Source of the DNA: an uncultured virus (IMG/VR IMGVR_UViG_3300022921_000003)
Lineage: Duplodnaviria; Heunggongvirae; Uroviricota; Caudoviricetes
Direction: 5' to 3' (one strand)
Length of the DNA: 64,000 nt
IMG/VR virus record: IMGVR_UViG_3300022921_000003
A program made the translations under genes and the position numbers. Under the pieces are notes generated by a model, which searched no databases, had not been told where the DNA came from, and was given only the letters and a program-made list of their open reading frames with translations. How positions within the stretch are numbered: position 1 is the first letter of the stretch; each line of letters starts with the position of its first letter. Of the stretch, positions 5,173-31,350 are shown piece after piece.

Positions 5173-5754
5173 TTAATCGTATCCTCTAACTGCATCTGTT
5201 TCATCCTCATCCATGAAACGCTCTAGACCATTCTTTGTTGTTGACTTCTTCTTTTCTTCTGTCTTTTTATTCTTTGGTTTGTAGACATCTTCATTAGGAA
5301 GATTTTCTATCGCAAAAGAATATGGAATACTGTAAGACCTGTCATCATAACTCATCGTGGTCCATGACTGATGGTCTGTTTCCTCAACAATTTTGTTTTT
5401 GACGTGGGTTTGCTTTTTCTCTTTTTGAATTCTACGCAAAAAGGCGTAGTAGATAATTTGCGTGAAGTATGCGAAAGGGTTCTTTGACTTTTCTGGATTG
5501 AAGTTTGAAGCATATTGTAAGCAGTTTTCGATGCCATCTGAAATCATTTCTTCTTTGTAAGTATAATTGATAAAATTAGGACGATAGGAAAGGTGCGTTG
5601 CAATCTTTAGAAAACACTCACCGATATAATTCGTAACAGGTGGTCTGTCTTCTCCTGCCTCTTCTGCAAGAGCACACTTCTCTTTCCATTCAACCATTGC
5701 TTGGAGAAACACCTTATTATCTACATAATGTTCACCCTTTTGACGTTTAGCCAT
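5173..5754 (-). CDS. gp55: gp55 late-transcription sigma factor
   Basis: HYVDNK...IGECFLKIA..LSYRPNFINYTY.EEMISDGIENC...NPFAYFTQIIYYAFLRRI. Confidence 0.95.
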   Translation of the reverse strand: MAKRQKGEHYVDNKVFLQAMVEWKEKCALAEEAGEDRPPVTNYIGECFLKIATHLSYRPNFINYTYKEEMISDGIENCLQYASNFNPEKSKNPFAYFTQIIYYAFLRRIQKEKKQTHVKNKIVEETDHQSWTTMSYDDRSYSIPYSFAIENLPNEDVYKPKNKKTEEKKKSTTKNGLERFMDEDETDAVRGYD

Positions 5755-6275: not shown

Positions 6276-7196
6276 CTACCAAAGTTCTTTTCCCCAAGTT
6301 TCTGTTTGAACTTCTGTGATACTGGGGACTTTATGTTTACTTCCCTTCTTCCAAATCTTTAGTTGTTCTTCCCAAGTCATTGTATCTTCATAATCCCATT
6401 TTCTTGTATCTTCATTCAATCGAATGGGTGCTTCGTAATCAAGAACATACTTGCCTAGTTCTGCATCATAATGAGCTGGAATCTTAATTCCAACTTCTTC
6501 ACTATATGGAACAACTCTACTTAACCAAATCTGCCGCATCTCGTCATTCGTTCCACCACGAATTCTATAAGTCTGTTGGTCAGTTCTTGTTTTATGTTCA
6601 TCAGGCAAACCAAACCATGCAGCACATAGAGGAAAATAAAAGTCAACGCACTCCTGTACTCTTTGTCTGCTTTCGTCATTCTGATTCCAAAAGAACTTTG
6701 TCCAGCGTTCTCCGTGTGCAACATGAAAGGTTTCTTCAAAGTTTACCTTACGCAATCCACGAGCAAGTGGCGCATAACTACAATGTTGTTCTAGGTCCAC
6801 AGTTGTGATATAACCAGCCCTGTCGCCGTAACACATACTCACAACAGTTTCAATGTAATCCTCATGAGGAAATTCTAACATTTGGAATGTACGCCATTCC
6901 TCTGGGTCACGCTCAAATAAAAACTCATGAGTATCATATCCAAAGTCTTCTAGCAGTCTGTACATAACCTGTGCATGTCCAAGTTCATCCTGACAGGCAG
7001 AAGACACTGCAATCTTGTCTTCAAGTGTTGGTGAGTTTTTAATAGCAGGAAAATAAGTTGGTAGAGTAACAACCTCTAGGTCTGCGGCGATATGAATAGT
7101 ATTTACCAAAACATCACGATAACGTGGAGTCATCTCATCAGGGTCTTCAATCTTATATCCTGTTGCGAGTTTTTCTTGTAGTCCTTGTTCATTCAT
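6276..7196 (-). CDS. PaaA-like ferritin-fold di-iron oxygenase subunit (phenylacetyl-CoA epoxidase family)
   Basis: KIEDPDEMTPRYR, SPTLEDK..QDELGH and YAPLARGLRKVNFEETFH; candidate ligands E41, E71, H74, D125, E155 and H158 have PaaA-like spacing. Confidence 0.8.
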   Translation of the reverse strand: MNEQGLQEKLATGYKIEDPDEMTPRYRDVLVNTIHIAADLEVVTLPTYFPAIKNSPTLEDKIAVSSACQDELGHAQVMYRLLEDFGYDTHEFLFERDPEEWRTFQMLEFPHEDYIETVVSMCYGDRAGYITTVDLEQHCSYAPLARGLRKVNFEETFHVAHGERWTKFFWNQNDESRQRVQECVDFYFPLCAAWFGLPDEHKTRTDQQTYRIRGGTNDEMRQIWLSRVVPYSEEVGIKIPAHYDAELGKYVLDYEAPIRLNEDTRKWDYEDTMTWEEQLKIWKKGSKHKVPSITEVQTETWGKELW

Positions 7197-8668
7197 TTGA
7201 GTTTTACCTTGCTGATTTCATAATCGAACTGTTCACTGTTGTAAATATTTAGTCGTTCTGTAAAATGGTTCAATGTGAAGTTGGGTTGATTACGAAATGT
7301 CATATCGTCAGCAATATCAAAAATCAAAACGGAATCTTTATTGTCCCCCTTACGCAGTCCACGTCCAATTGATTGGAGCACTCTAATCTTACTTTTAGAT
7401 GGGCTGGCGAGCACGATGTTGTTAATGTTGCGAATATTAACACCAGTACTAAAAGTCCCATAACTCGCAATAGTGATAGAGTTTTTTTCATTTTCGACAG
7501 TTGCCCTAATATTCTCTCTTTCTTCAGTACTAGTATTACCATAGATAAAGAATATCTTTCTCATTCTATCGTCAAAGAAACCATTATCTCTGGCATCAAT
7601 TACTTTGTCGTATAACAGTTGTCCTTGATTTTCTACCAACTGAAATAGACAAAGTGTGTTGCCTGGAATGTGAAAAAGAAGATTACTGATAAACTCATTG
7701 CGTATTTCAGATGTGCCAAGATACTTTAGTTCATCTGCATATGTCATTCTCTCACGAATATTCGGATGTTTGAGAACCAGACATTTTATTTTCAAGTCTG
7801 CCAGTGACTTATTATCCATCAACTCCTTTGTTGTCGTAACTCGTTCTACAGGACCAAACAATCCCTCCAATACAAGTCGATGAGTCTCTGTCCCATCAAG
7901 TGTCCCTGTAAAACCAAAACGATGCTTACAACTATGTAGTTTACTCATAATCCCTGTGAGTGACTTTGCCTTGAATAAATGTGCTTCGTCACCAATCACA
8001 CAACCGAAATCATCAAAGTATTTCTTTGGCATCTTGTATAGAGATTGCCAAGTTGATATCACCACATCCTTTGTAACTTTTGTATCATGTCCCTGATAAA
8101 CTCTTTGACAGTATGTGCCGGGTGACCAACCATAGTCTTCGAAGTCACTGTACATCTGTTCTACCAGTGAGGTTGTAGGAACAAGAATGAGCGTCTTGAG
8201 TCCTGCCATGTGGTAGTAACGAACCAGTGAATAGATTATAAGTGACTTACCAGAAGCAGTAGGACTAAGAATAAGGGCACGATCATTTCCCACGGCATGA
8301 GAGAAAGCCTGAATCTGATAATCTCGCACCTTGATGGATTTTCCTTGCGACCTAGGCTTGAGACTTTTGATAAACCCTCTTGCCACAGAACCCACAACAT
8401 TCCGTTCATTTTTTACTCCTTCTTCTAACTCATATGATACATTATTATCATCACAATACTTCGTGATGTAGTCAAGTAGTCCAACGTATATCTCACCATT
8501 TGCGGGTGAGAATAATCTTATCTTACCATCCCAAATACGTTTGCGATACATGGGCATGAACTTTGCACCAGGCACCTCAAAGGTAAAGAATTCTGTGAGT
8601 TCACGCCTTGTGGACTCAGACATGTCTTCCAGTAGTAGATATACTTCATTCTTCTTAGATATACGCAT
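7193..8668 (-). CDS. uvsW: UvsW SF2 helicase
   Basis: SPTASGKS, DEAH, TGT and QSIGRGLR motifs. Start moved to MRISKKNEVY. Confidence 0.95.
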   Translation of the reverse strand: MRISKKNEVYLLLEDMSESTRRELTEFFTFEVPGAKFMPMYRKRIWDGKIRLFSPANGEIYVGLLDYITKYCDDNNVSYELEEGVKNERNVVGSVARGFIKSLKPRSQGKSIKVRDYQIQAFSHAVGNDRALILSPTASGKSLIIYSLVRYYHMAGLKTLILVPTTSLVEQMYSDFEDYGWSPGTYCQRVYQGHDTKVTKDVVISTWQSLYKMPKKYFDDFGCVIGDEAHLFKAKSLTGIMSKLHSCKHRFGFTGTLDGTETHRLVLEGLFGPVERVTTTKELMDNKSLADLKIKCLVLKHPNIRERMTYADELKYLGTSEIRNEFISNLLFHIPGNTLCLFQLVENQGQLLYDKVIDARDNGFFDDRMRKIFFIYGNTSTEERENIRATVENEKNSITIASYGTFSTGVNIRNINNIVLASPSKSKIRVLQSIGRGLRKGDNKDSVLIFDIADDMTFRNQPNFTLNHFTERLNIYNSEQFDYEISKVKLK

Positions 8669-9212
8669 TTTGTAGTGTTCGAGGTTCACCGTAGTGTCCT
8701 CTGACCAATATGTTCCATGCAATACTTATGCGTTCATTTGGAGTGGGTGGAACCCAATGCATAAGCCATGATGGAAAGAATAATGCAGTGTCTACAACAG
8801 AGTTAAACTGCAACATACCAGAGTTGTCCCAATCTGGCGTATTTCTAGGTTTGAAGATTGTCGCAGATGGTCTGGGGTCGAAGAACTGAATAGGAGCACC
8901 ACTCTGTAGATAATAGACACCAGACAGAACATTATTGGAGTGCGTGTGGGGTGGGTGCGAGTTTCCTTCTGAAAGAAGGTTTCCCCACATATTAGTAATC
9001 TCTACGTCCTCAAACTCGTATCCACTGTTTGTTAGAATGGTCTTTGATGTCTTCAGAATCTTTTCTGCAAGAGGACGAAAAAAAGAAGTGTTGTGTAACT
9101 CATCATCCTTACTGCCATTCTTGATATGAATTAACATATTCTTCTGGTCAAATCTATCAACATCCATTTTGACTTCATGAATAGATGTAGGAAAACACTT
9201 GTATGTTTTCAC
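8655..9212 (-). CDS. 2OG-Fe(II) oxygenase (TIGR02466-like)
   Basis: HPPHTHSNNVLSGVYY...FFPSWLMHWV...RISIAWN; probable GTG start overlapping the upstream stop. Confidence 0.8.
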   Translation of the reverse strand: MKTYKCFPTSIHEVKMDVDRFDQKNMLIHIKNGSKDDELHNTSFFRPLAEKILKTSKTILTNSGYEFEDVEITNMWGNLLSEGNSHPPHTHSNNVLSGVYYLQSGAPIQFFDPRPSATIFKPRNTPDWDNSGMLQFNSVVDTALFFPSWLMHWVPPTPNERISIAWNILVRGHYGEPRTLQNAYI

Positions 9213-9754
9213 ATCAACCACGATACAATACTCCAACGTGTTCCCTTAGTGACAACTTCTGCTTCGTGTGGATACATAAAGTTTGATGGGAACACTACGG
9301 CAGACCTAGCCTTAGGTTTCATAGTTTTCGTTGCAACTGTGAACTTACCACCCTCGTAGTCATCATTCAGATACAACAGAACTGTTGCATGTGGGTATCC
9401 ATAGTGTTGTCCGTGACTGTGATGAATGCTGTCGTAGTGTTTAGACATGAACCCACCTTCTGAATATCTATTGATACGAAAGTCTGTGAGATGTTGAACA
9501 GAGAAATATGGATGGTCTGTCATATACATGTTGATGGCATTCACGAAACACTTCTTGAGAGGTTCATAGAGTTCGTGTGTGTTGCGAATCCAGAACTCAT
9601 CCATGTTTACTCGTTCGTCTGAATTGTCCACCTCACCTGTCTTATTTGCATATGTTGATTTCTGGTAATCTAGGTTTGCGACCATAATCTGATCAGTCAA
9701 ATCTTTGGAAACCATATTCGAGTATTCCATAATATATTTTTCAATGTCCATCAA
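9209..9754 (-). CDS. 2OG-Fe(II) oxygenase, prolyl-4-hydroxylase-like
   Basis: HYD...LYLNDDYEGG...FPSNFMYPH...GTRWS. Confidence 0.85.
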   Translation of the reverse strand: MMDIEKYIMEYSNMVSKDLTDQIMVANLDYQKSTYANKTGEVDNSDERVNMDEFWIRNTHELYEPLKKCFVNAINMYMTDHPYFSVQHLTDFRINRYSEGGFMSKHYDSIHHSHGQHYGYPHATVLLYLNDDYEGGKFTVATKTMKPKARSAVVFPSNFMYPHEAEVVTKGTRWSIVSWLM

Positions 9755-10107
9755 ACGCCTCTTTCGATAAATGTCTTTTTGATTTCTTTGGGTTCAAAGA
9801 ATTCGTATATCACTCTCTGTGCAACATTAACGTTATACTCTTTACAACTAAAGATATCAATGTAGAAATCACCTGTCGCATCCACAAAGTGTCCTGTAAC
9901 ATTACTTGTCTCAATCATCTGACAAAAACTAAAACCACCAATCTTTGGGTCATGTTCAGCAAAGTGTTCTATTAGTAGAGGTCCATAAGCTTTCATATTA
10001 ATTTCAAAAATAAGTTCTCCTACAAAATAACTAATATTTCCTTCACTAGAAATCTTTTCGATGTTGCCAGACTTACAATCAAACAGTGTGTGATAACCCC
10101 AAATCAT
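9751..10107 (-). CDS. speD: pyruvoyl-dependent S-adenosylmethionine decarboxylase-family proenzyme
   Basis: WGYHTLFDC...QMIETSNVTGHF...YIDIFSCK. Confidence 0.8.
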   Translation of the reverse strand: MIWGYHTLFDCKSGNIEKISSEGNISYFVGELIFEINMKAYGPLLIEHFAEHDPKIGGFSFCQMIETSNVTGHFVDATGDFYIDIFSCKEYNVNVAQRVIYEFFEPKEIKKTFIERGV

Positions 10108-10535
10108 ACCATCCCAGCCTCAAACTTCTTCCAATCAGTTGCATTACGAATGTCCCACCCACGATTGTCAATAGACTTAATGATACCCTTGCAGTAATCC
10201 ACACAGGTTTCATAATATCCAATCTTGTTCTGTAGGCGTAAAATATCCTCATCTGACTGCACATACATTTGCAAGTCAGTTTTCATTACCTTTATGTCAA
10301 AGGGTTTTGCAGCATAGACCTTTGCATCTGCCTTACCACCATAGTACTCCCACTTCTCACGATAGAGTTGTTGGTGGTCTGTCCGTGCTTTGATGAGCAT
10401 CAGTTCGAAGTCGGATTTAAAATCTAACCACTTCTGTTTGATTACTTGGTTCTTGTAGGATTCTTGATCAATGTGTTCATCATTTGTAACTGGAAGGTCT
10501 TCTTTTGCAATACGCTTCAATTCATCTAAATTCAT
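10104..10535 (-). CDS. uvsY: UvsY recombination mediator
   Basis: KWEYYGGKA...PFDIKV.K.D...RGWDIRNATDWKKFEAG. Confidence 0.9.
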   Translation of the reverse strand: MNLDELKRIAKEDLPVTNDEHIDQESYKNQVIKQKWLDFKSDFELMLIKARTDHQQLYREKWEYYGGKADAKVYAAKPFDIKVMKTDLQMYVQSDEDILRLQNKIGYYETCVDYCKGIIKSIDNRGWDIRNATDWKKFEAGMV

Positions 10536-10549
10536 GTTTATCCCATATT

Positions 10550-10672
10550 AAAAAAAGTGAGCAGAGTTGATTATACTCTCTTTGTATATATTGACCCTAG
10601 TGAGGCTTGCCGAGGTGTCACTAGAAATTAAGTCTCAGATTTAATAAATGTTAAAGTTTATCGCATCTGCTC
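10550..10672 (-). ncRNA. candidate structured small RNA (~114 nt plus U-tail), rod-shaped with a central bubble
   Basis: Begins 5 nt after TATAAATA. 5' GAGCAGA pairs with 3' UCUGCUC, followed by a U7 run; apical stem CUAGUGA/UCACUAG; no ORF. Confidence 0.6.
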
Positions 10673-10677
10673 GTTTT

Positions 10678-10685
10678 TATTTATA
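10678..10685 (-). promoter_or_regulatory. T4-type late promoter TATAAATA
   Basis: Exact gp55 consensus in an intergenic region. Confidence 0.75.
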
Positions 10686-11320: not shown

Positions 11321-11548
11321 CTAATCTGGAACCCTCCCAAAATTATTACTGTAATTTTCAAGAATATAATCATATGCCTCATTCATTGCAGTATTATATT
11401 CATCTTCCGTGTATGTATCACTAAAATTATCCATTGCAGCCTGTCTTGCATCAAAAATTGAATTATCAGGTGTAAAGTTTGGATTTGGTAAATTTTCTTT
11501 GCCAATCTCAATGTATTTTGCTAGTAAAAAGTCATACGGTTCAGCCAT
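11321..11548 (-). CDS. hypothetical protein (75 aa)
   Basis: ORF with an AAGGAG SD, in the same operon as the upstream gene. Confidence 0.65.
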   Translation of the reverse strand: MAEPYDFLLAKYIEIGKENLPNPNFTPDNSIFDARQAAMDNFSDTYTEDEYNTAMNEAYDYILENYSNNFGRVPD

Positions 11549-11558
11549 GATTTACTCC

Positions 11559-12872
11559 TTAATAAAATGCATTTTCAATGTAAGCCCACTGAGCGGTATC
11601 TTTATGCCAAATGCCGAGATCGCGATTGTTTGCCATGAACACTGGGTAGACGGTAGTATCTGATGTTGAGGTAAATGTATGTATTGCTTCTCGTTTTTTT
11701 GTCACAGTATGGCTGCCATCTGAATTTGAAAAGTCGATTGTAATAGTATCCATTGCAATATCTGAACCACTTGTATAAAGTCTTACTGTTCGATATAAAT
11801 CCTGATTTTGTCCACTTCTATCTTGACCGCAAGTATACTTTGAAAAGTTGAGGCTCTTCCTCATGCCATCCAACCCTACAAGGAAACATTCTCCCGCTGG
11901 TATAGATGTTCCACCATCAAAAGCTACTGAACTGCCAACGGTTGCTGTACCACCTGACCATGTAATTGGAAATACTGCTGAGTTAGCTGGATTTGCTGTA
12001 TCCAGATGTATTAAAACATTACCCCAAGTTGTGGACAGTAAAACAGGTCTTGCAGTACTACCAGTATGTGTTGGTAGAGTTACTGCACTGTCATTATCTG
12101 TTTTTGTTATTGCACCGCCCGCCGTACCTGTCCAAGACATATGGTTGATGTCAACTCGTGTCGTTGCATCAGTAAATGTGTTTGAGTCAGTATAATTTGT
12201 GTATATAAACTCATTTGTCGTTCCGACATTTGCATATGCCTTCCCAGAACTGCCTGGTGATGATATATCATCATGGTAGTGTGCAGTTGAGTTAGAGGTT
12301 ATGGCTGATACCGTAGTACTTGCACCGCCTTGGTACGTCCCCATAAGAAATTTCTGGCGATTAGAGTTTGAACCATGTACACCTTGCGTATCATTTATTC
12401 GCACACCACCGTTATATACTTCTACTTCGGTGTATACGTTGACATTGTTATCAAAACTCTCAAGGTCGGCAGCAAGGTCGGTATAATACATTCTTGCCGT
12501 AAAAGCACCAGCAGCAGAACGCATACCCCATACACCTTGTTCTCGTCGCAGCTGCATCCCAGAACCAGAATGAGATGTGGACCCTAGATTATACATTGTC
12601 CAATCAGATGCAAGTTCCGTAAATGTATGAGTCGAAGTATTATAAGAAATTGGTGTTGTTGCATAAAGGTTGGTATTGTATGGTGCGACCATCATCAACC
12701 AATTATCTGCGGCAGTTACAGAATCAGTTTCACCAACATCATAAACCCAATCACCACCAACTGCCCAAATACCCTGATCAGATGAACTTGTAAGTGTTGT
12801 TGTATGTACTTTAGCTGTCGGGACTGCGCCGCCAGAACCAAACCCTGCCATGGTATATCCAAAATTTGCCAT
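11559..12872 (-). CDS. putative virion adhesin / beta-rich Ser-Thr-Gly protein
   Basis: N-terminal FGYTMAGFGSGG peptide, S/T/G-rich composition, follows gp3 in a late unit. Function inferred only. Confidence 0.5.
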   Translation of the reverse strand: MANFGYTMAGFGSGGAVPTAKVHTTTLTSSSDQGIWAVGGDWVYDVGETDSVTAADNWLMMVAPYNTNLYATTPISYNTSTHTFTELASDWTMYNLGSTSHSGSGMQLRREQGVWGMRSAAGAFTARMYYTDLAADLESFDNNVNVYTEVEVYNGGVRINDTQGVHGSNSNRQKFLMGTYQGGASTTVSAITSNSTAHYHDDISSPGSSGKAYANVGTTNEFIYTNYTDSNTFTDATTRVDINHMSWTGTAGGAITKTDNDSAVTLPTHTGSTARPVLLSTTWGNVLIHLDTANPANSAVFPITWSGGTATVGSSVAFDGGTSIPAGECFLVGLDGMRKSLNFSKYTCGQDRSGQNQDLYRTVRLYTSGSDIAMDTITIDFSNSDGSHTVTKKREAIHTFTSTSDTTVYPVFMANNRDLGIWHKDTAQWAYIENAFY

Positions 12873-12883
12873 ATCCCTTTTCC

Positions 12884-13471
12884 TTATATACTTTCAATCT
12901 CGTAAAGTGAGTATGCGAACGTTGCACTCACAACAATATAATCAACGTCAGTTGCAGCCTGAGTAAACTCTAGTGCGTCTAGTGAAGTTGGGTAGAGGTC
13001 ACGAAAGAATACATTAACCACCGGATTATTCTTGTTTGATAGAATACTCAAGGATGCATCAGAGAACATTGCTCTTGCAGCAGTTGCGGGTTGTACATCA
13101 CCAATATCTCTACTTGATCCTCTTGTAGAAGATGGAGTTGCAGATGTTGATGCACGAAAGTTCTTGAACTGGTCTGTGCTTTTTGGAAAACCAATCGCGG
13201 TAATCCACTCATGTAATGACAGATAGTTCTCTAGATACTCATCACATATAAACGATATTGTGAGGGGGTCATAGGTCACCTTATCACCCATCATTGGAAG
13301 GTCTGTGAGTCTTGTTGGCATAACTGCATTACCCATACTGATAGATGGAATAGACGCAGATACAGTGAAAAACTCCACCTTTGGAAGTTGGTGAATGTTA
13401 AACTTAAATTGAGTTGGACTTAGGTAGTCTAACTTCTCAGGTTGTCTGTCTATTGTTCTTGTTGTTGCCAT
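12884..13471 (-). CDS. gp3: gp3 tail completion / tube terminator protein
   Basis: YLSPTQFKF...PKVEFF...DEYLENY..LHEWI...YPTSL..L.F; downstream of gp23. Start moved to MATTRT. Confidence 0.88.
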   Translation of the reverse strand: MATTRTIDRQPEKLDYLSPTQFKFNIHQLPKVEFFTVSASIPSISMGNAVMPTRLTDLPMMGDKVTYDPLTISFICDEYLENYLSLHEWITAIGFPKSTDQFKNFRASTSATPSSTRGSSRDIGDVQPATAARAMFSDASLSILSNKNNPVVNVFFRDLYPTSLDALEFTQAATDVDYIVVSATFAYSLYEIESI

Positions 13472-13476
13472 GTAAG

Positions 13477-13484
13477 TATTTATA
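13477..13484 (-). promoter_or_regulatory. late promoter TATAAATA, 5 nt upstream of the gp3 ATG
   Basis: TATAAATA cttac ATG. Confidence 0.75.
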
Positions 13485-13486
13485 AG

Positions 13487-13517
13487 AAAAAGGGAGACAC
13501 CCTTTCGAGTGTCTCCC
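13487..13517 (-). terminator. intrinsic terminator after gp23
   Basis: GGGAGACAC-tcgaaagg-GTGTCTCCC followed by TTTTT. Confidence 0.85.
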
Positions 13518-13549
13518 AAGTTTGATCACAAACTTTCTTTTTCTTATTA

Positions 13550-22730: not shown

Positions 22731-22738
22731 TATAAATA
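22731..22738 (+). promoter_or_regulatory. late promoter TATAAATA (plus strand), 5 nt upstream of an ATG
   Basis: TATAAATA acatt ATG; divergent from the gp18 promoter. Confidence 0.65.
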
Positions 22739-22743
22739 ACATT

Positions 22744-23043
22744 ATGAATGAACATTACGAAAAATACAAAGAAACCATCAAAAAGGTATCTAGGAGAAAC
22801 TACCAGAAACGTAAGATACTTCTGGAAGAGTTTCTAGTTGATAAATCTTGTAGACACTGTGGTGAGTCTGAGCATGTGTGTCTCAAGTTCTATCCTCATG
22901 ATGCAGAGATACGCAAGGTATCAAAGAGAGTTGGAACAAGTGATGATAGCCGAAAGGAAGTCTTTCATCTCATAGATCAGTCAACCATCCTCTGTTACAA
23001 CTGTTATATCAAGAAACATCATGATTTAATCGAATTTATTTGA
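22744..23043 (+). CDS. HNH-like zinc-binding protein, catalytic residues apparently degenerate
   Basis: CRHC...LKFYPH...LCYNCYIKKH; two CxxC pairs, with Tyr where His is usual. Confidence 0.6.
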   Translation: MNEHYEKYKETIKKVSRRNYQKRKILLEEFLVDKSCRHCGESEHVCLKFYPHDAEIRKVSKRVGTSDDSRKEVFHLIDQSTILCYNCYIKKHHDLIEFI

Positions 23044-26434: not shown

Positions 26435-26607
26435 TGTCTACTTTTCCAAAAATGCGTTCCGTAGTAATGATCTTTTGTATACGGTGTTTTTCTATTGTAC
26501 CCCTGATTTGCCTTGTAAATTTTTGTTCCATCGTCATCATATTCCCAGACTCTTTCATCGGGATTATGACTCTGTATTGGACCTTCTTTTATATCATCTT
26601 TTTTCAT
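26431..26607 (-). CDS. small hypothetical protein (58 aa), coupled to gp17
   Basis: MKKDDIKEG...; ATG is 5 nt after TATAAATA (26613-26620); stop overlaps the gp17 ATG. Confidence 0.55.
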   Translation of the reverse strand: MKKDDIKEGPIQSHNPDERVWEYDDDGTKIYKANQGYNRKTPYTKDHYYGTHFWKSRQ

Positions 26608-26611
26608 GTTT

Positions 26612-27613
26612 CTATTTATATCTAACAAATGTGCCGTCCTCATATACAATACTATTAAGAACATAATGACCTTGATCAACACCTAGATATCGTGATTGTT
26701 TCTTATATACTAAAGGAAAAGAACTCTCTTTTTGTTTTGTGTTTAGATATTCCTCATTTTTATCATAGTCATATATGTATTTTTTCATTGGCCACTTATA
26801 TGTTCCATAGTCACCATTATGTCCAGCATATGGATTAGATAAAGACCACTGTTCAAAATAGTCTGTGTAGAAAAATGCACGCTCTAGGTGGTGTGTAGAG
26901 GGGTCTTTTAAAAATCTTAGTGAGTGATGTCTTGTAGACAAATCATCTATACTTCTAGCAAGCCACCAAAGTAACTCCCAACATGTCTCTGGCACATATG
27001 GAGATGTATCAATATATTTCTCAATAGTGTTTAAAATATCAGAGTCTTTTATAATATTAATCCAATCACTATCTTTAATCTTAAAGAATTCTTCCATAGA
27101 CATTGTTGATGATATTGCAAGAAATAATTCGTCTCCACCGTTACCATTCACATTAATTGATTGTCCATTCCACAACTCAATATTATCGTAGATATAGTTC
27201 TTATGAGAATGCCACTGTAAATTAATTTTCTTATTCACCAACAAATCATAAAAACGTGGATTTTCTTGCACACTGTTTGTTGATAGATAAACTGTAAGAC
27301 TTGTATCCAACCTTCTAGTTTTCAATAGACTTACCAATGCACATGTGCTGTCTATACCACCAGACCACCATAATCGTATTGGTTTACCAATATCCCATAA
27401 TTCTACAGCCCTGCGATTAGTCAACTCTTCAAATGTACCTACAGGTTTTGGTGAGATATTATCTGGTAATGGGTTCTCTACCAAATCTAGTTGATTATCA
27501 AACCCATGTCTAAAACGTGGAGAGTGTAAACCAAAACTAGTTGCTAATTTATACTCATCTCTTGCACTTATTTCTGGAAAAGAATTTAGATGATAATATA
27601 TAATCTTACTCAC
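26612..27613 (-). CDS. PP-loop (adenine nucleotide alpha-hydrolase) protein, asparagine-synthase C-domain-like
   Basis: WWSGGIDST and NGNGGDELF motifs. Confidence 0.7.
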   Translation of the reverse strand: MSKIIYYHLNSFPEISARDEYKLATSFGLHSPRFRHGFDNQLDLVENPLPDNISPKPVGTFEELTNRRAVELWDIGKPIRLWWSGGIDSTCALVSLLKTRRLDTSLTVYLSTNSVQENPRFYDLLVNKKINLQWHSHKNYIYDNIELWNGQSINVNGNGGDELFLAISSTMSMEEFFKIKDSDWINIIKDSDILNTIEKYIDTSPYVPETCWELLWWLARSIDDLSTRHHSLRFLKDPSTHHLERAFFYTDYFEQWSLSNPYAGHNGDYGTYKWPMKKYIYDYDKNEEYLNTKQKESSFPLVYKKQSRYLGVDQGHYVLNSIVYEDGTFVRYK

Positions 27614-28689: not shown

Positions 28690-30069
28690 TTATGATGGGG
28701 CCCAAGCTTTATATGGAAGTTTTATTTCTCTATCGCGTAAATATTTTTTTTGAAAAACTTTGGGTGTTTGATTTTTAATCCATGGCATAACATGCAACCA
28801 TTCTTGTACGAACTTTTTATCATAAAATACATTTCTATTCTCCAATCCATAGGCCAATGACAAAGTTTCAAACAGGTCAAGTAAACGTCTTGCTTGTCCT
28901 CCATAAAAGTGTTGCCACGGAAATACTGTTGATAAATCCTCTGGCCAGATAGAAAAACCAGCTGGGTTTTTATTCATAATGCCGTTGTACTTCAAAGGAT
29001 ACCCAGCTGGTAACGCTGGATAATTATCAAAAATTTCATCTCCTCCGTTTCCAGTAAATATAACTTTACTGTTAAATTCAGAAATACATTTTTCTCTCAT
29101 TACCCACTGAGCTCGCAGACGTAAATTTGCAGACACTAATCTGTTTCTATTATTACTCCATTTGGATTTTGATTTTTTTTCATCCCAATTGGGGGGACAA
29201 TCGGTGGGGAAGCTTTCTATCTTAATATTTTTATTATATGTGTCTGTATATTTAATAATTTGATTCAATGATTCAATATCTTCGTTCCACGGACTTGCTA
29301 AACAAGTTACACTGTTAAAATGTTTTTTATGGTCAGATAAACACAATGCAATAGGTGAACTATCTAAACCACTACTGAGAAGTATAGTTAAATTTTCTGT
29401 ATAGCGTTTAAGAACTGCTTCTTCGAAGGAATTGGTAAGATCATCCAAATTATCTTTATACTGATTTAAATCCCATTTATGAAGTTCTGTATTAACTGGT
29501 TTCAATATACCAGTTTTTACATTATAATTATGATGGCTATTATGTGGAATTCTATAGAATGTGTTATTCCATTCAGTATCGTTGTACATAGCAAACTTGA
29601 GATCAAAGGGTTGAGACACGCCGGGCGGACCAAATCTTCCACCTTTAGGGTCTGTCATTGGAAAAGTACTGAAATAGAAATAATCATCAATTTTATAATA
29701 AAATGCTTGTCTTGTACTCCACGGATCAGTAAATAAATCTATATTATTAGTTTTCTCATCATAAATTATGAACAAGAATTCGCCATCTAAATATTCTGTA
29801 AATTTGTCACCATATTCTAAATATTTGTCAATGCAAAAAAAGATACTACTGAATAATGGATGACGATTATAAATTTCTCCAATCAATATATAATACTTGT
29901 TATTATGTTTGAAAGGTTGTACAACATCTTTTCCAGTAATACTTGATAGGTGGTGTGTTATATAAACACCGTTAACATCTATAGTATTACTAGCATCTGG
30001 TCCACCCAACTTCAAATAATCATCAATTAATATTGAGTTTGGGTTGTTAGTTATTTTGAAAGTAGACAT
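28690..30069 (-). CDS. asparagine-synthase-like protein (Ntn-like domain plus PP-loop)
   Basis: GEIYN, LDGEF, LSSGLDS and GNGGDE motifs; Ser instead of Cys at position 2. Confidence 0.75.
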   Translation of the reverse strand: MSTFKITNNPNSILIDDYLKLGGPDASNTIDVNGVYITHHLSSITGKDVVQPFKHNNKYYILIGEIYNRHPLFSSIFFCIDKYLEYGDKFTEYLDGEFLFIIYDEKTNNIDLFTDPWSTRQAFYYKIDDYFYFSTFPMTDPKGGRFGPPGVSQPFDLKFAMYNDTEWNNTFYRIPHNSHHNYNVKTGILKPVNTELHKWDLNQYKDNLDDLTNSFEEAVLKRYTENLTILLSSGLDSSPIALCLSDHKKHFNSVTCLASPWNEDIESLNQIIKYTDTYNKNIKIESFPTDCPPNWDEKKSKSKWSNNRNRLVSANLRLRAQWVMREKCISEFNSKVIFTGNGGDEIFDNYPALPAGYPLKYNGIMNKNPAGFSIWPEDLSTVFPWQHFYGGQARRLLDLFETLSLAYGLENRNVFYDKKFVQEWLHVMPWIKNQTPKVFQKKYLRDREIKLPYKAWAPS

Positions 30070-30072
30070 AAT

Positions 30073-31350
30073 CTATTTATACCGTTTACGGTTGCTTTGG
30101 AGGTTGCCTTGGAACCCAAATCCAACATCGGGGTTAGACCATTCGAATATACTACATTTTCTTAGATACTCTTTAGTAATATGTTTGTATTCTATATTTT
30201 TATAATGCGGTTTCATATTTAACCAATCTTGTGCGAGTTGTTTATCATAAAAAACGCTTCTTACTTCTTGTCCAAAAAAACAACAATATGTGTAATGATA
30301 ATCTATGGAATTTATATAACCATATAATTCTCTTTTATCTTCATACAATCTTCTGTATGGAAAGATTTCATTTTGATTTTCAGGCCATAAATCAAAATCA
30401 GAATTAGTTTTACTCCTATACATATCAATAGTTTCATCACTACCGCTACCCATAAGAATTACCTTACTACCAAAAGACAATGCAAGTTTTCTTAGTTCAG
30501 ATGATATTGTATGTTGTTGAGTCGGATAATAATTTTTATCTCTCATATGTTCCTCTGTTACATAAGTATGGTTAATATAATCCCCACAATACTCAACTAC
30601 TTTGTTAATTGCTTTTTGATTTTCAAAATTCTTAACAATGGATGTGAGTGCATTAAAATTTTTCTTGTTTTTTGCTAAACAACATGCAACAGCCAAACTA
30701 TCAACTCCGCCGCTCATAAAAAGTGTAGAATTGGGATACCATCTTTTATTTACAGCATCTTCGAATGACATGATAACATTATCAAGGTTATCACTATTCT
30801 GTTCTAAATTCCACTTGTGTAAATGATCATTTACAATATTAAATTCTTTTATATCAATATCAAATACAACATGTGAATTTGCAGGCAATCTGTAGTGACC
30901 TTCCAAATTTTTAAAATATTTGAAAATGTCTGGTGTTTTGTTTATTAGAGAAGTAAAATAAAAATTATCACCATCTTCAAAGTAATATGCTTGTTTTGTA
31001 GAAAATGGGTCAGTGAAAAAATGAATTTTTCTATTATCAACAACAATGAATAGGAATTCACCATCTAAATGTTCTGTAAATTTATCACCATACTCATTGT
31101 ATTTTTCAATACCAAAATAGATATCACTTGGCCAAGAATCATCGTAATTATAAATCTCACCGATTAATATAAAATATTTCCCACCGTGATAAATTGGTTG
31201 TGGTGTTATTTCACCAGTAATATTTAACAAGTGATGTGTTATGTAGATACCGTTAAGTTCTACGGTATTTGATTTTGTAGGACCACCATCTCTCAGATAT
31301 TGATCTACAAAAATTTCATTTGAGTCATTAGTTATTTTAAAAGTACACAT
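30073..31350 (-). CDS. asparagine-synthase-like amidotransferase
   Basis: N-terminal MC, GEIYN, LDGEF, MSGGVDS and GSGSDE; tandem paralog of 28690..30069. Confidence 0.8.
   Translation of the reverse strand: MCTFKITNDSNEIFVDQYLRDGGPTKSNTVELNGIYITHHLLNITGEITPQPIYHGGKYFILIGEIYNYDDSWPSDIYFGIEKYNEYGDKFTEHLDGEFLFIVVDNRKIHFFTDPFSTKQAYYFEDGDNFYFTSLINKTPDIFKYFKNLEGHYRLPANSHVVFDIDIKEFNIVNDHLHKWNLEQNSDNLDNVIMSFEDAVNKRWYPNSTLFMSGGVDSLAVACCLAKNKKNFNALTSIVKNFENQKAINKVVEYCGDYINHTYVTEEHMRDKNYYPTQQHTISSELRKLALSFGSKVILMGSGSDETIDMYRSKTNSDFDLWPENQNEIFPYRRLYEDKRELYGYINSIDYHYTYCCFFGQEVRSVFYDKQLAQDWLNMKPHYKNIEYKHITKEYLRKCSIFEWSNPDVGFGFQGNLQSNRKRYK

What the first reader, a model, noticed from the sequence alone, without database searches (positions are those of the whole stretch)
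10550..10685. Late-promoter-driven rod-shaped ncRNA with an AU-rich central bubble (possible phage 6S-like RNA polymerase decoy)
Seen: a ~150-bp gap in an otherwise tightly packed region reads TATAAATA-aaaac-GAGCAGA...TCTGCTC-ac-TTTTTTT on the minus strand. The stem starts 5 nt after the promoter, the same offset as the ATGs of three leaderless genes here, so the RNA 5' end would coincide with the stem. By-eye pairing gives a closing stem (GAGCAGA/UCUGCUC, GAU/AUC, ACUUU/AGAGU), an AU-rich two-sided bubble, then GACU/GGUC and CUAGUGA/UCACUAG. Known: 6S RNA has this stem-bubble-stem shape and sequesters sigma70 holoenzyme. Inference: a late RNA that titrates host sigma70-RNAP would favour gp55 transcription. 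It is shorter than typical 6S RNAs and contains a TATAAT that could instead serve uvsY.
Basis: partly seen in the sequence, partly recalled or inferred. Interest (0 to 1): 0.8.

Follow-up and report, generated by a model that had tools for sequence, protein, structure and literature searches.

The report
Miniature 6S-like RNA in marine phages
Many marine T4-like viruses carry a small, conserved folded RNA, switched on late in infection, that is shaped like an opened promoter and probably traps the host's RNA polymerase, a trick so far known from bacteria's own 6S RNA; the trapping itself is untested.

Summary
The element is real. It is a 114-nt RNA (10672-10559, minus strand) behind a T4 late promoter. 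It belongs to an 82-119-nt family (126 distinct sequences) lying between gp3 and the uvsY operon, found in 154 of 160 uvsY-selected marine phage loci and in cultured phage Melnitz. Its bubble matches real 6S RNAs in size and register (stem then AACA in 54 of 66, versus 30 of 33 6S RNAs). The 3' strand carries a sigma70-type A-11/U-7 box (65 of 66), not a gp55-type one (1 of 66). Best reading: a minimal 6S-like decoy of host sigma70-RNA polymerase (about 0.6). Against: no match to Rfam 6S in either direction, no -35 arm, no universal terminator, always ahead of a start codon, no expression or binding evidence. The TATAAT is not conserved. A 51-nt candidate upstream of UvsY in Fremin 2023 may be a fragment of it.

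The parts
10678..10685 (-). T4-type late (gp55) promoter TATAAATA; predicted +1 at G10672
   Evidence: TATAAATA 105, TCTAAATA 19, TATATATA 2 of 126 members, 5-nt spacer in 108 (members were collected with a promoter-like filter, raw unfiltered view); box numbered -13..-6 from the gp55 pockets at A-12, A-9, A-8 (PMC7892883)
10559..10672 (-). 114-nt structured RNA (family 82-119 nt), rod with central bubble
   Evidence: covariance model R1 scores it 80.9 bits on this strand, 18.6 on the other
10653..10672 (-). 5' strand of the closing and downstream helices (GAGCAG, GAU, ACUUU); predicted pRNA template
   Evidence: pairs with 10579-10559; U-A/G-C/A-U at columns 25:106, G-C/A-U at 6:130 and 16:116, C-G/U-A at 7:129
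10635..10652 (-). 5' strand of the central bubble (18 nt), starting AACA; C10650 is the predicted pRNA start template (+1), A10649 the -1 purine
   Evidence: C 66 of 66, A 65 of 66; AACA after the stem in 54 of 66 phage RNAs and 30 of 33 6S RNAs
10593..10634 (-). apical arm (GAC/GUC plus CUAGUGA 10624-10618 / UCACUAG 10603-10597); variable in the family
   Evidence: 10-22 nt in 50 of 66, 41-42 nt in 16 of 66; base of arm covaries at 5 of 5 pairs; extension G-C/A-U in 22/11 of 36
10580..10592 (-). 3' strand of the central bubble (13 nt) with sigma70 -10-like box: A10592 = A-11, U10588 = U-7
   Evidence: A-11 65 of 66, A-10 66 of 66, U-7 66 of 66; 12-14 nt to the duplex; nAnnnU 65 of 66, gp55-type AnnAA 1 of 66
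10559..10579 (-). 3' strand of the downstream and closing helices (AGAGU, AUC, CUGCUC); holds the non-conserved TATAAT at 10575-10570
10550..10556 (-). U7 run after the closing stem; possible weak terminator or processing boundary, not family-wide
   Evidence: 5 or more T in 56 of 126, 3 or fewer in 53 of 126; not called by the terminator scan
10104..10535 (-). uvsY, first gene downstream (GGGA at 10544-10541, ATG 23 nt after the RNA)
   Evidence: phrog_231 E 3.5e-44; downstream gene in 122 of 126 members
12884..13519 (-). gp3-like tail tube/completion gene; directly upstream of the RNA in most relatives, separated here by three inserted ORFs
   Evidence: phrog_45; upstream gene in 121 of 126 members
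5173..5754 (-). gp55 late sigma factor, inferred to transcribe the RNA
   Evidence: phrog_234 E 6e-64

Best explanation
A phage-encoded, minimal 6S-like RNA. Shown: it is a conserved RNA rod with an open-promoter-sized bubble that starts at the +1 of a gp55 late promoter. Inferred: late in infection it is made as the 5' end of the uvsY-operon transcript and ends at the U-run or is trimmed out. Host sigma70-RNA polymerase binds the bubble as if it were an open promoter. The 3' strand presents a -10 box (A-11, U-7) nearer to consensus than that of host 6S RNAs, which may offset the missing -35 arm. The 5' strand puts a C three bases from the helix into the active site, so a short G-initiated product RNA (5'-GUUAAAG... 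here) could be made and release the enzyme. The effect would be to damp host and phage-early sigma70 transcription and favour gp55 transcription, a job that T4 gives partly to the AsiA protein, which was not found in Melnitz.
For: Rod conserved with 29 two-sided compensatory events on a uvsY tree of 53 of the 66 members, 0-2 in four slid controls. Bubble sizes: 3' strand 12-14 nt versus 12-15 nt in 33 real 6S RNAs; 5' strand 14-21 nt versus 16 in the Rfam consensus. AACA directly after the helix in 54 of 66 versus 30 of 33; an identical run of 5 nt or more with some 6S bubble start at exactly this register in 54 of 66, against 39 of 5818 other start positions. E. coli pRNA starts at U44, third base from the helix, with a conserved A45 (PMC9670815); a -1 purine and G initiation favour pRNA synthesis in Bacillus (PMC3753640). 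nAnnnU in 65 of 66, gp55-type AnnAA in 1 of 66 (PMC7892883). A 78-nt 6S-1 without the -35 arm still cycles (PMC8876501). A 3' hairpin like the E. coli release hairpin can form in the Melnitz-like subgroup (median -2.7 kcal/mol, 13 of 31 beyond shuffles). The RNA body does not pair with the downstream ribosome-binding region (4 of 66) and stays in place when the downstream gene is exchanged (3 of 126). No AsiA in complete Melnitz, T4 positive.
Against: No RF00013 hit at E up to 10 for the window element, L329 or five records, and the phage model hits none of the 6S genes in 30 loci. Profiles of three 6S core segments score phage RNAs little or no better than shuffles (0, 2 and 8 of 66 at p<0.05). 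The 6S motif CACCU is replaced by (C/U)AAUAU. The -35 arm is absent; in E. coli its loss abolishes binding, and mutating A131, U135 or G136 causes no binding defect (PMC8876501), so the -10-like bases may matter less than argued. The AACA match is mainly to Bacillota 6S RNAs; E. coli has GAUA, and no 6S of a likely marine host was compared. The rod is the majority predicted fold in only 27 of 66 (0.15 for the window). No family-wide terminator; a start codon follows within 14-30 nt in nearly all. The 3' release hairpin is missing in the other subgroup, which includes the window (2 of 35). Mosig and HTVC008M lack both AsiA and the RNA, so the substitution argument is weak.
Confidence: 0.6

Rival explanations
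1. A cis-acting 5' leader of the late uvsY-uvsW operon mRNA: the clamped 5' end stabilises the transcript, and the bubble binds a protein (UvsY, gp32, RegA or an RNase) or elongating RNA polymerase to set read-through or translation.
For: Always at +1 of the operon promoter and mostly 14-30 nt before a start codon; uvsY downstream in 122 of 126; no strong U-run in 53 of 126. One metatranscriptome contig runs unbroken from uvsY into the RNA (X5 record 20; could be DNA). Fremin 2023 lists a 51-nt marine candidate within 25 bp of 26 UvsY genes.
Against: No predicted pairing of the RNA body with the ribosome-binding region (4 of 66). The downstream gene is exchangeable (L007/L134, L109, L191). It does not explain bubble lengths fixed at 12-14 nt, the helix-anchored AACA or the A-11/U-7 spacing. 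Co-transcription with a gene is normal for ssrS (fau follows it; processing from a longer precursor, PMC9670815).
Confidence: 0.2
2. It is a polymerase decoy, but for gp55 holoenzyme or core enzyme (negative feedback or storage), since gp55 needs no -35 element.
For: Short apical arm; T4 late promoters have no -35 conservation (PMC7892883); A-10 and A-6 are conserved as in TATAAATA.
Against: gp55 pockets take A-12, A-9 and A-8; an AnnAA pattern occurs in 1 of 66. Inhibiting its own late transcription is of unclear benefit (inference).
Confidence: 0.08
3. A two-state switch (rod versus cloverleaf with 5' and 3' hairpins) that senses a ligand or protein and controls termination at the U-run.
For: Rod within 2 kcal/mol of the MFE in 54 of 66 but dominant in only 27; a 5' hairpin is stronger than shuffles in 17 of 66.
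Against: The closing stem and the ribosome-binding region are predicted unchanged in either state; U-run often absent; no riboswitch family hit; the alternative hairpins are patchy, while the rod is universal.
Confidence: 0.07
4. A counterpart of T4 ori(uvsY): a promoter plus an unwinding element whose transcript primes replication as an R-loop.
For: T4 oriF is annotated at the start of uvsY, primed by the uvsY transcript.
Against: The promoter here is late-type. Conservation is of RNA pairing (102 G-U versus 7 A-C cells), which would oppose R-loop formation (inference). The element can lie 2 kb from uvsY (L007).
Confidence: 0.03

Closest known systems
Bacterial 6S/SsrS RNA (Rfam RF00013; E. 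coli 6S, Bacillota 6S-1 type)
   Same: Closing helix, asymmetric bubble of the same size, apical helix; helix followed by nn-pyrimidine-A (mostly AACA); paired C then A opening the 3' strand; co-located ahead of a protein gene.
   Different: Half the length (82-119 versus about 180 nt); no -35 arm; (C/U)AAUAU in place of CACCU; phage-encoded behind a gp55 promoter; no covariance-model match either way.
Engineered 6S78 / 6S82cp truncations of B. subtilis 6S-1 (Ganapathy et al. 2022, PMC8876501; passages and Introduction read)
   Same: Bubble flanked by two short arms, 78-82 nt, no -35 region; these still bind, template pRNA and release.
   Different: Artificial and about 10-fold weaker binders; the phage RNA is natural and its binding is untested.
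DNAVirus_2338 (Fremin et al. 2023, PMC10690425, supplementary tables)
   Same: Marine Caudovirales candidate structured RNA within 25 bp upstream of UvsY in 26 of its 27 instances.
   Different: 51 nt, one covarying pair, no function given in the rows seen; its alignment could not be opened, so identity with part of this RNA is likely but unverified.
T4 AsiA anti-sigma70 protein (function recalled)
   Same: Would serve the same end, disabling host sigma70 transcription.
   Different: A protein acting early on sigma region 4; not found in Melnitz, Mosig or HTVC008M.
T4 oriF / ori(uvsY)
   Same: Promoter-linked element at the start of uvsY.
   Different: Here a late promoter and a conserved RNA fold.

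Membership tests
6S RNA (RF00013) | Covariance-model score above the gathering threshold | tested here: not met
   No hit at gathering or at E up to 10; reciprocal search with model R1 over 30 6S loci also negative
6S RNA (RF00013) | Rod with closing stem, central bubble and apical stem, supported by covariation | tested here: met
6S RNA (RF00013) | Bubble of open-promoter size (3' strand about 13 nt, 5' strand about 15 nt) | tested here: met
   12-14 nt and 14-21 nt versus 12-15 nt in 33 6S RNAs and 16 in the Rfam consensus
6S RNA (RF00013) | pRNA start site: pyrimidine three bases from the helix followed by a purine | tested here: met
   C 66 of 66, A 65 of 66; AACA 54 of 66 versus 30 of 33; anchored test. 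Positional only; the parse used this motif, but only one true member (L382) failed the parse and it carries the motif
6S RNA (RF00013) | CACCU motif at the start of the 3' bubble strand | tested here: not met
   Phage hexamers are CAAUAU 29, UAAUAU 14 and variants of 66; segment profiles no better than shuffles
6S RNA (RF00013) | About 180-200 nt with a long apical arm carrying the -35-like region | tested here: not met
   82-119 nt; arm 10-22 or 41-42 nt; pattern scans for longer-armed Melnitz-type forms gave 0 viral hits and 2 chance metagenome hits
6S RNA (RF00013) | Release structure (3' hairpin in gamma-proteobacteria, or collapse helix) | tested here: inconclusive
   3' hairpin beyond shuffles in 13 of 31 Melnitz-like and 2 of 35 other members; 22 of 33 6S RNAs
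6S RNA (RF00013) | Specific binding to housekeeping holoenzyme and pRNA synthesis | not testable with these tools
   needs biochemistry
6S RNA (RF00013) | Abundant discrete transcript | tested here: inconclusive
   Only assembled contigs were available; they cannot show ends or level
Known riboswitches, ribozymes and phage RNA motifs in Rfam 15 | Covariance-model match | tested here: not met
tRNA / tmRNA | ARAGORN call | tested here: not met
   0 genes in the window

The most novel reading that the evidence does not exclude
Marine T4-like phages of streamlined heterotrophs encode a natural, half-size promoter-mimic RNA that they switch on with their late sigma factor to capture host sigma70-RNA polymerase: an RNA anti-sigma factor, the first viral use of the 6S mechanism that I could find, with a -10 box near consensus in place of the -35 arm, and possibly an NTP-sensing release by pRNA synthesis that ties the late switch to host nutrient state.
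Probability: 0.5. Interest if true: 0.92.

Novelty: new variant of a known kind. Interest (0 to 1): 0.8.

Why it matters
Phage takeover of RNA polymerase is described as the work of proteins. [quoted passage not shown] An RNA decoy made from a late promoter would give a direct, testable answer, add a class of phage non-coding RNA weapons, and supply over a hundred natural variants showing the minimum a promoter-mimic RNA needs. A cultured phage-host pair (Melnitz on OM43 H5P1) carries it, so the test is within reach. Even if the decoy idea fails, this is a well-supported RNA family absent from Rfam 15.

Tried and rejected
Single-sequence folding: weak and favours another fold; RNAalifold on the close clade also chose the 5' hairpin, and the rod emerged only with diverse members. 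TATAAT as uvsY promoter: rejected (1 of 126 at that place; not called by the sigma70 scan). Anti-Shine-Dalgarno switch: rejected on predicted pairing. Expression: 24 runs listed, 4 laid, all contigs; two have pieces over the element, with no sign of a discrete or enriched RNA, which contigs cannot show. Sequence homology to 6S by segment profiles and reciprocal models: negative; by-eye likeness of some members to the Rfam consensus 3' strand is therefore not counted as evidence. Cellular copies: one exact-pattern scan of genome contigs gave 5 hits; only L507, a 5.6-kb contig in a Vicingus MAG, scores (65.5 bits) and is probably a binned phage fragment (not checked further). Cultured phages: blastn found the RNA only in the four Melnitz records; the model found none in whole Mosig and only a weak hit inside a coding sequence in HTVC008M, and none near uvsY in S-WAM1 or P-SSM4 (local loci only). 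The loose pattern gave mostly chance hits, dropped for lack of a closing stem. Of 150 candidates, 24 failed the parse: 23 lack the core and none of these elements sits at a gp3-uvsY junction (one is a second, unrelated match in L331), and L382 is a true member added by hand. L409 is a chance match in coding DNA. A pair count of the alternative fold on alignment A1 was not obtained. No 6S RNA of OM43, SAR11 or another marine proteobacterium could be fetched. Literature searches for a phage-encoded 6S-like or polymerase-decoy RNA listed none; the library omits most subscription papers.

Full report
Setting. The window is a marine T4-like phage: gp3-like tail gene at 12884-13519, uvsY at 10104-10535 and gp55 late sigma at 5173-5754, all on the minus strand. 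Its best uvsY matches among cultured phages are Melnitz, cyanophages and pelagiphages at about 40% identity. The host is unknown.

Observation. The promoter motif is enriched in the window (10 versus 3.3 expected), and three other copies have an ATG after five bases. Folded alone, the RNA is only marginally stable (z -1.9, -1.7) and the MFE is not the rod. Rfam 15 has no match at gathering score and no 6S hit at E up to 10.

A family. Of 80 viral loci picked by the window's uvsY, 75 matched a motif search and L080 carries a variant. Cultured Methylophilales phage Melnitz has an 83-nt homologue in the same place, as do the loci picked by its uvsY. Together, 154 of 160 uvsY-selected loci hold it; four of the six misses end within 90 nt of uvsY and two stop inside an inserted gene. 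There are 126 distinct parsed sequences of 82-119 nt. gp3 is directly upstream in 121 and uvsY directly downstream in 122; genes are inserted on either side in a few, the window included. A covariance model finds one copy in Melnitz and in the nearest record, none in Mosig, and only a weak coding-region hit in HTVC008M.

Structure. The innermost pair of the downstream helix is U-A, G-C or A-U in different clades. On a uvsY tree (53 of 66 rows; 13 had no full uvsY in the fetched DNA) parsimony counts 29 two-sided events against 0-2 in slid controls, with 33 pair-breaking events. G-U cells outnumber A-C 102 to 7, so it acts as RNA on this strand. The apical arm is free to vary from 10 to 42 nt. 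A competing fold with 5' and 3' hairpins is close in energy: the rod dominates in 27 of 66 predictions and lies within 2 kcal/mol of the MFE in 54.

What the bubble conserves. The 3' strand is 12-14 nt from its first A to the duplex and reads A-11 (65 of 66), A-10 (66), U-7 (66); the 5' strand is 14-21 nt, with C as third base (66) and A as fourth (65). The parse used these motifs, but only one true member failed it and that one carries them. I fetched 33 real 6S RNAs (31 Bacillota, one verrucomicrobial MAG, E. coli). Their 3' strands are 12-15 nt, and 30 of 33 begin the 5' strand with AACA, as do 54 of 66 phage RNAs. An identical run of five or more bases with a 6S bubble start occurs at this register in 54 of 66, and at 39 of 5818 other positions. 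In E. coli the third base is U44, the pRNA start, followed by conserved A45 (PMC9670815, passages); in Bacillus G initiation and a -1 purine favour pRNA synthesis (PMC3753640, passages). The nAnnnU spacing fits the sigma70 pockets for A-11 and T-7 (recalled) in 65 of 66, whereas the gp55 pockets at A-12, A-9, A-8 (PMC7892883, passages) fit 1 of 66.

Against the 6S reading. Covariance models do not connect the families in either direction, and 6S segment profiles do not beat shuffles. The 6S motif CACCU is absent. The -35 arm is missing: a 78-nt Bacillus construct without it still cycles at ten-fold lower affinity, but in E. coli such truncation abolishes binding, and A131, U135 and G136 mutants bind normally (PMC8876501, passages and Introduction). 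A U-run of five or more follows the stem in only 56 of 126, and a start codon follows within 14-30 nt in nearly all, so the RNA is at least sometimes a 5' leader. The 3' release-type hairpin is seen in the Melnitz-like subgroup (13 of 31) but not the rest (2 of 35). The comparison set lacks marine proteobacterial 6S RNAs. Metatranscriptome contigs neither show nor exclude a discrete RNA.

Mechanism. Shown: late promoter, RNA rod, fixed bubble geometry, 6S-like initiator register, sigma70-type -10 spacing. Inferred: gp55 makes it late; it ends at the U-run or is trimmed from the uvsY transcript, as 6S is trimmed from a longer precursor; host sigma70 holoenzyme binds the bubble; sigma70 transcription falls and gp55 transcription gains; pRNA synthesis may release the enzyme when NTPs are high. 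I put this at 0.6. The main rival, a cis leader of the uvsY operon (0.2), fits the position but not the bubble constraints, and the RNA body does not pair with the ribosome-binding region (4 of 66). A gp55 or core decoy (0.08), a conformational switch (0.07) and an ori(uvsY) counterpart (0.03) are weaker. AsiA is not found in Melnitz, but also not in Mosig and HTVC008M, which lack the RNA.

Prior art. The Melnitz paper mentions neither 6S RNA nor uvsY in its main text (PMC9004378, passages). Fremin et al. 2023 list DNAVirus_2338 (51 nt, 27 marine sequences, one covarying pair) within 25 bp of 26 UvsY genes, and DNAVirus_3475 (98 nt, 158 sequences) next to one. Either may overlap this family; the alignment files were too large to open, so that stays unverified and bears on the novelty of the RNA itself, not of the 6S-like reading. 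A 2026 preprint on intergenic clustering has no uvsY, T4-like or gp55 mention in its main text (supplements not seen). Six searches listed no phage-encoded 6S-like RNA. Earlier notes of this scan gave nothing by sequence or place; the word search listed other phage RNAs on other genomes, which I did not use.

Verdict. A real RNA family absent from Rfam 15. It is not a member of RF00013 but most likely works like 6S. New variant of a known kind; interest 0.8.

Noticed in passing
window 6276-7196 (-): A PaaA/PaaC phenylacetyl-CoA epoxidase-family gene (PF05138, E 1.2e-49) with no PHROG match, between uvsW and gp55: an unusual candidate auxiliary metabolic gene.
   Followed up: partly
window 11559-12872 and 11321-11548 (-): A 437-aa Gly/Ser/Thr-rich ORF and a 75-aa ORF with no Pfam or PHROG match inserted between gp3 and the RNA; L134 and L109 carry a similar-looking 456-aa ORF on the other side of the RNA, so this junction is an insertion hotspot.
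   Followed up: partly
window 8655-10107 (-): S-adenosylmethionine decarboxylase and two 2OG-Fe(II) oxygenase genes between uvsY and uvsW; a related contig lacks exactly the decarboxylase gene (skip 9751-10106).
   Followed up: no
L083:2403-2485 (HTVC008M, before uvsY): A TATAAAT late-promoter-like motif followed by a different long hairpin (16-bp stem, small internal loop, z -1.9) that the family model does not recognise; possibly an unrelated or degenerate counterpart.
   Followed up: partly
window 13471-13484, 26607-26620, 30069-30081 (-), 22731-22746 (+): Late promoters with an ATG 4-5 nt downstream: leaderless late mRNAs, including gp3; L409 shows the same arrangement.
   Followed up: partly
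L014, L015, L017-L076 (promoter of the RNA): Many relatives use TCTAAATA, overlapping the gp3 stop codon, and two use TATATATA in place of TATAAATA.
   Followed up: no
L507:3636-3747 (-): A family member on a 5.6-kb contig binned in a Vicingus (Bacteroidota) MAG; probably a mis-binned phage fragment, not a reliable host call.
   Followed up: no
window 13492-13517 (-): Strong intrinsic terminator between gp23 and the gp3 late promoter.
   Followed up: no
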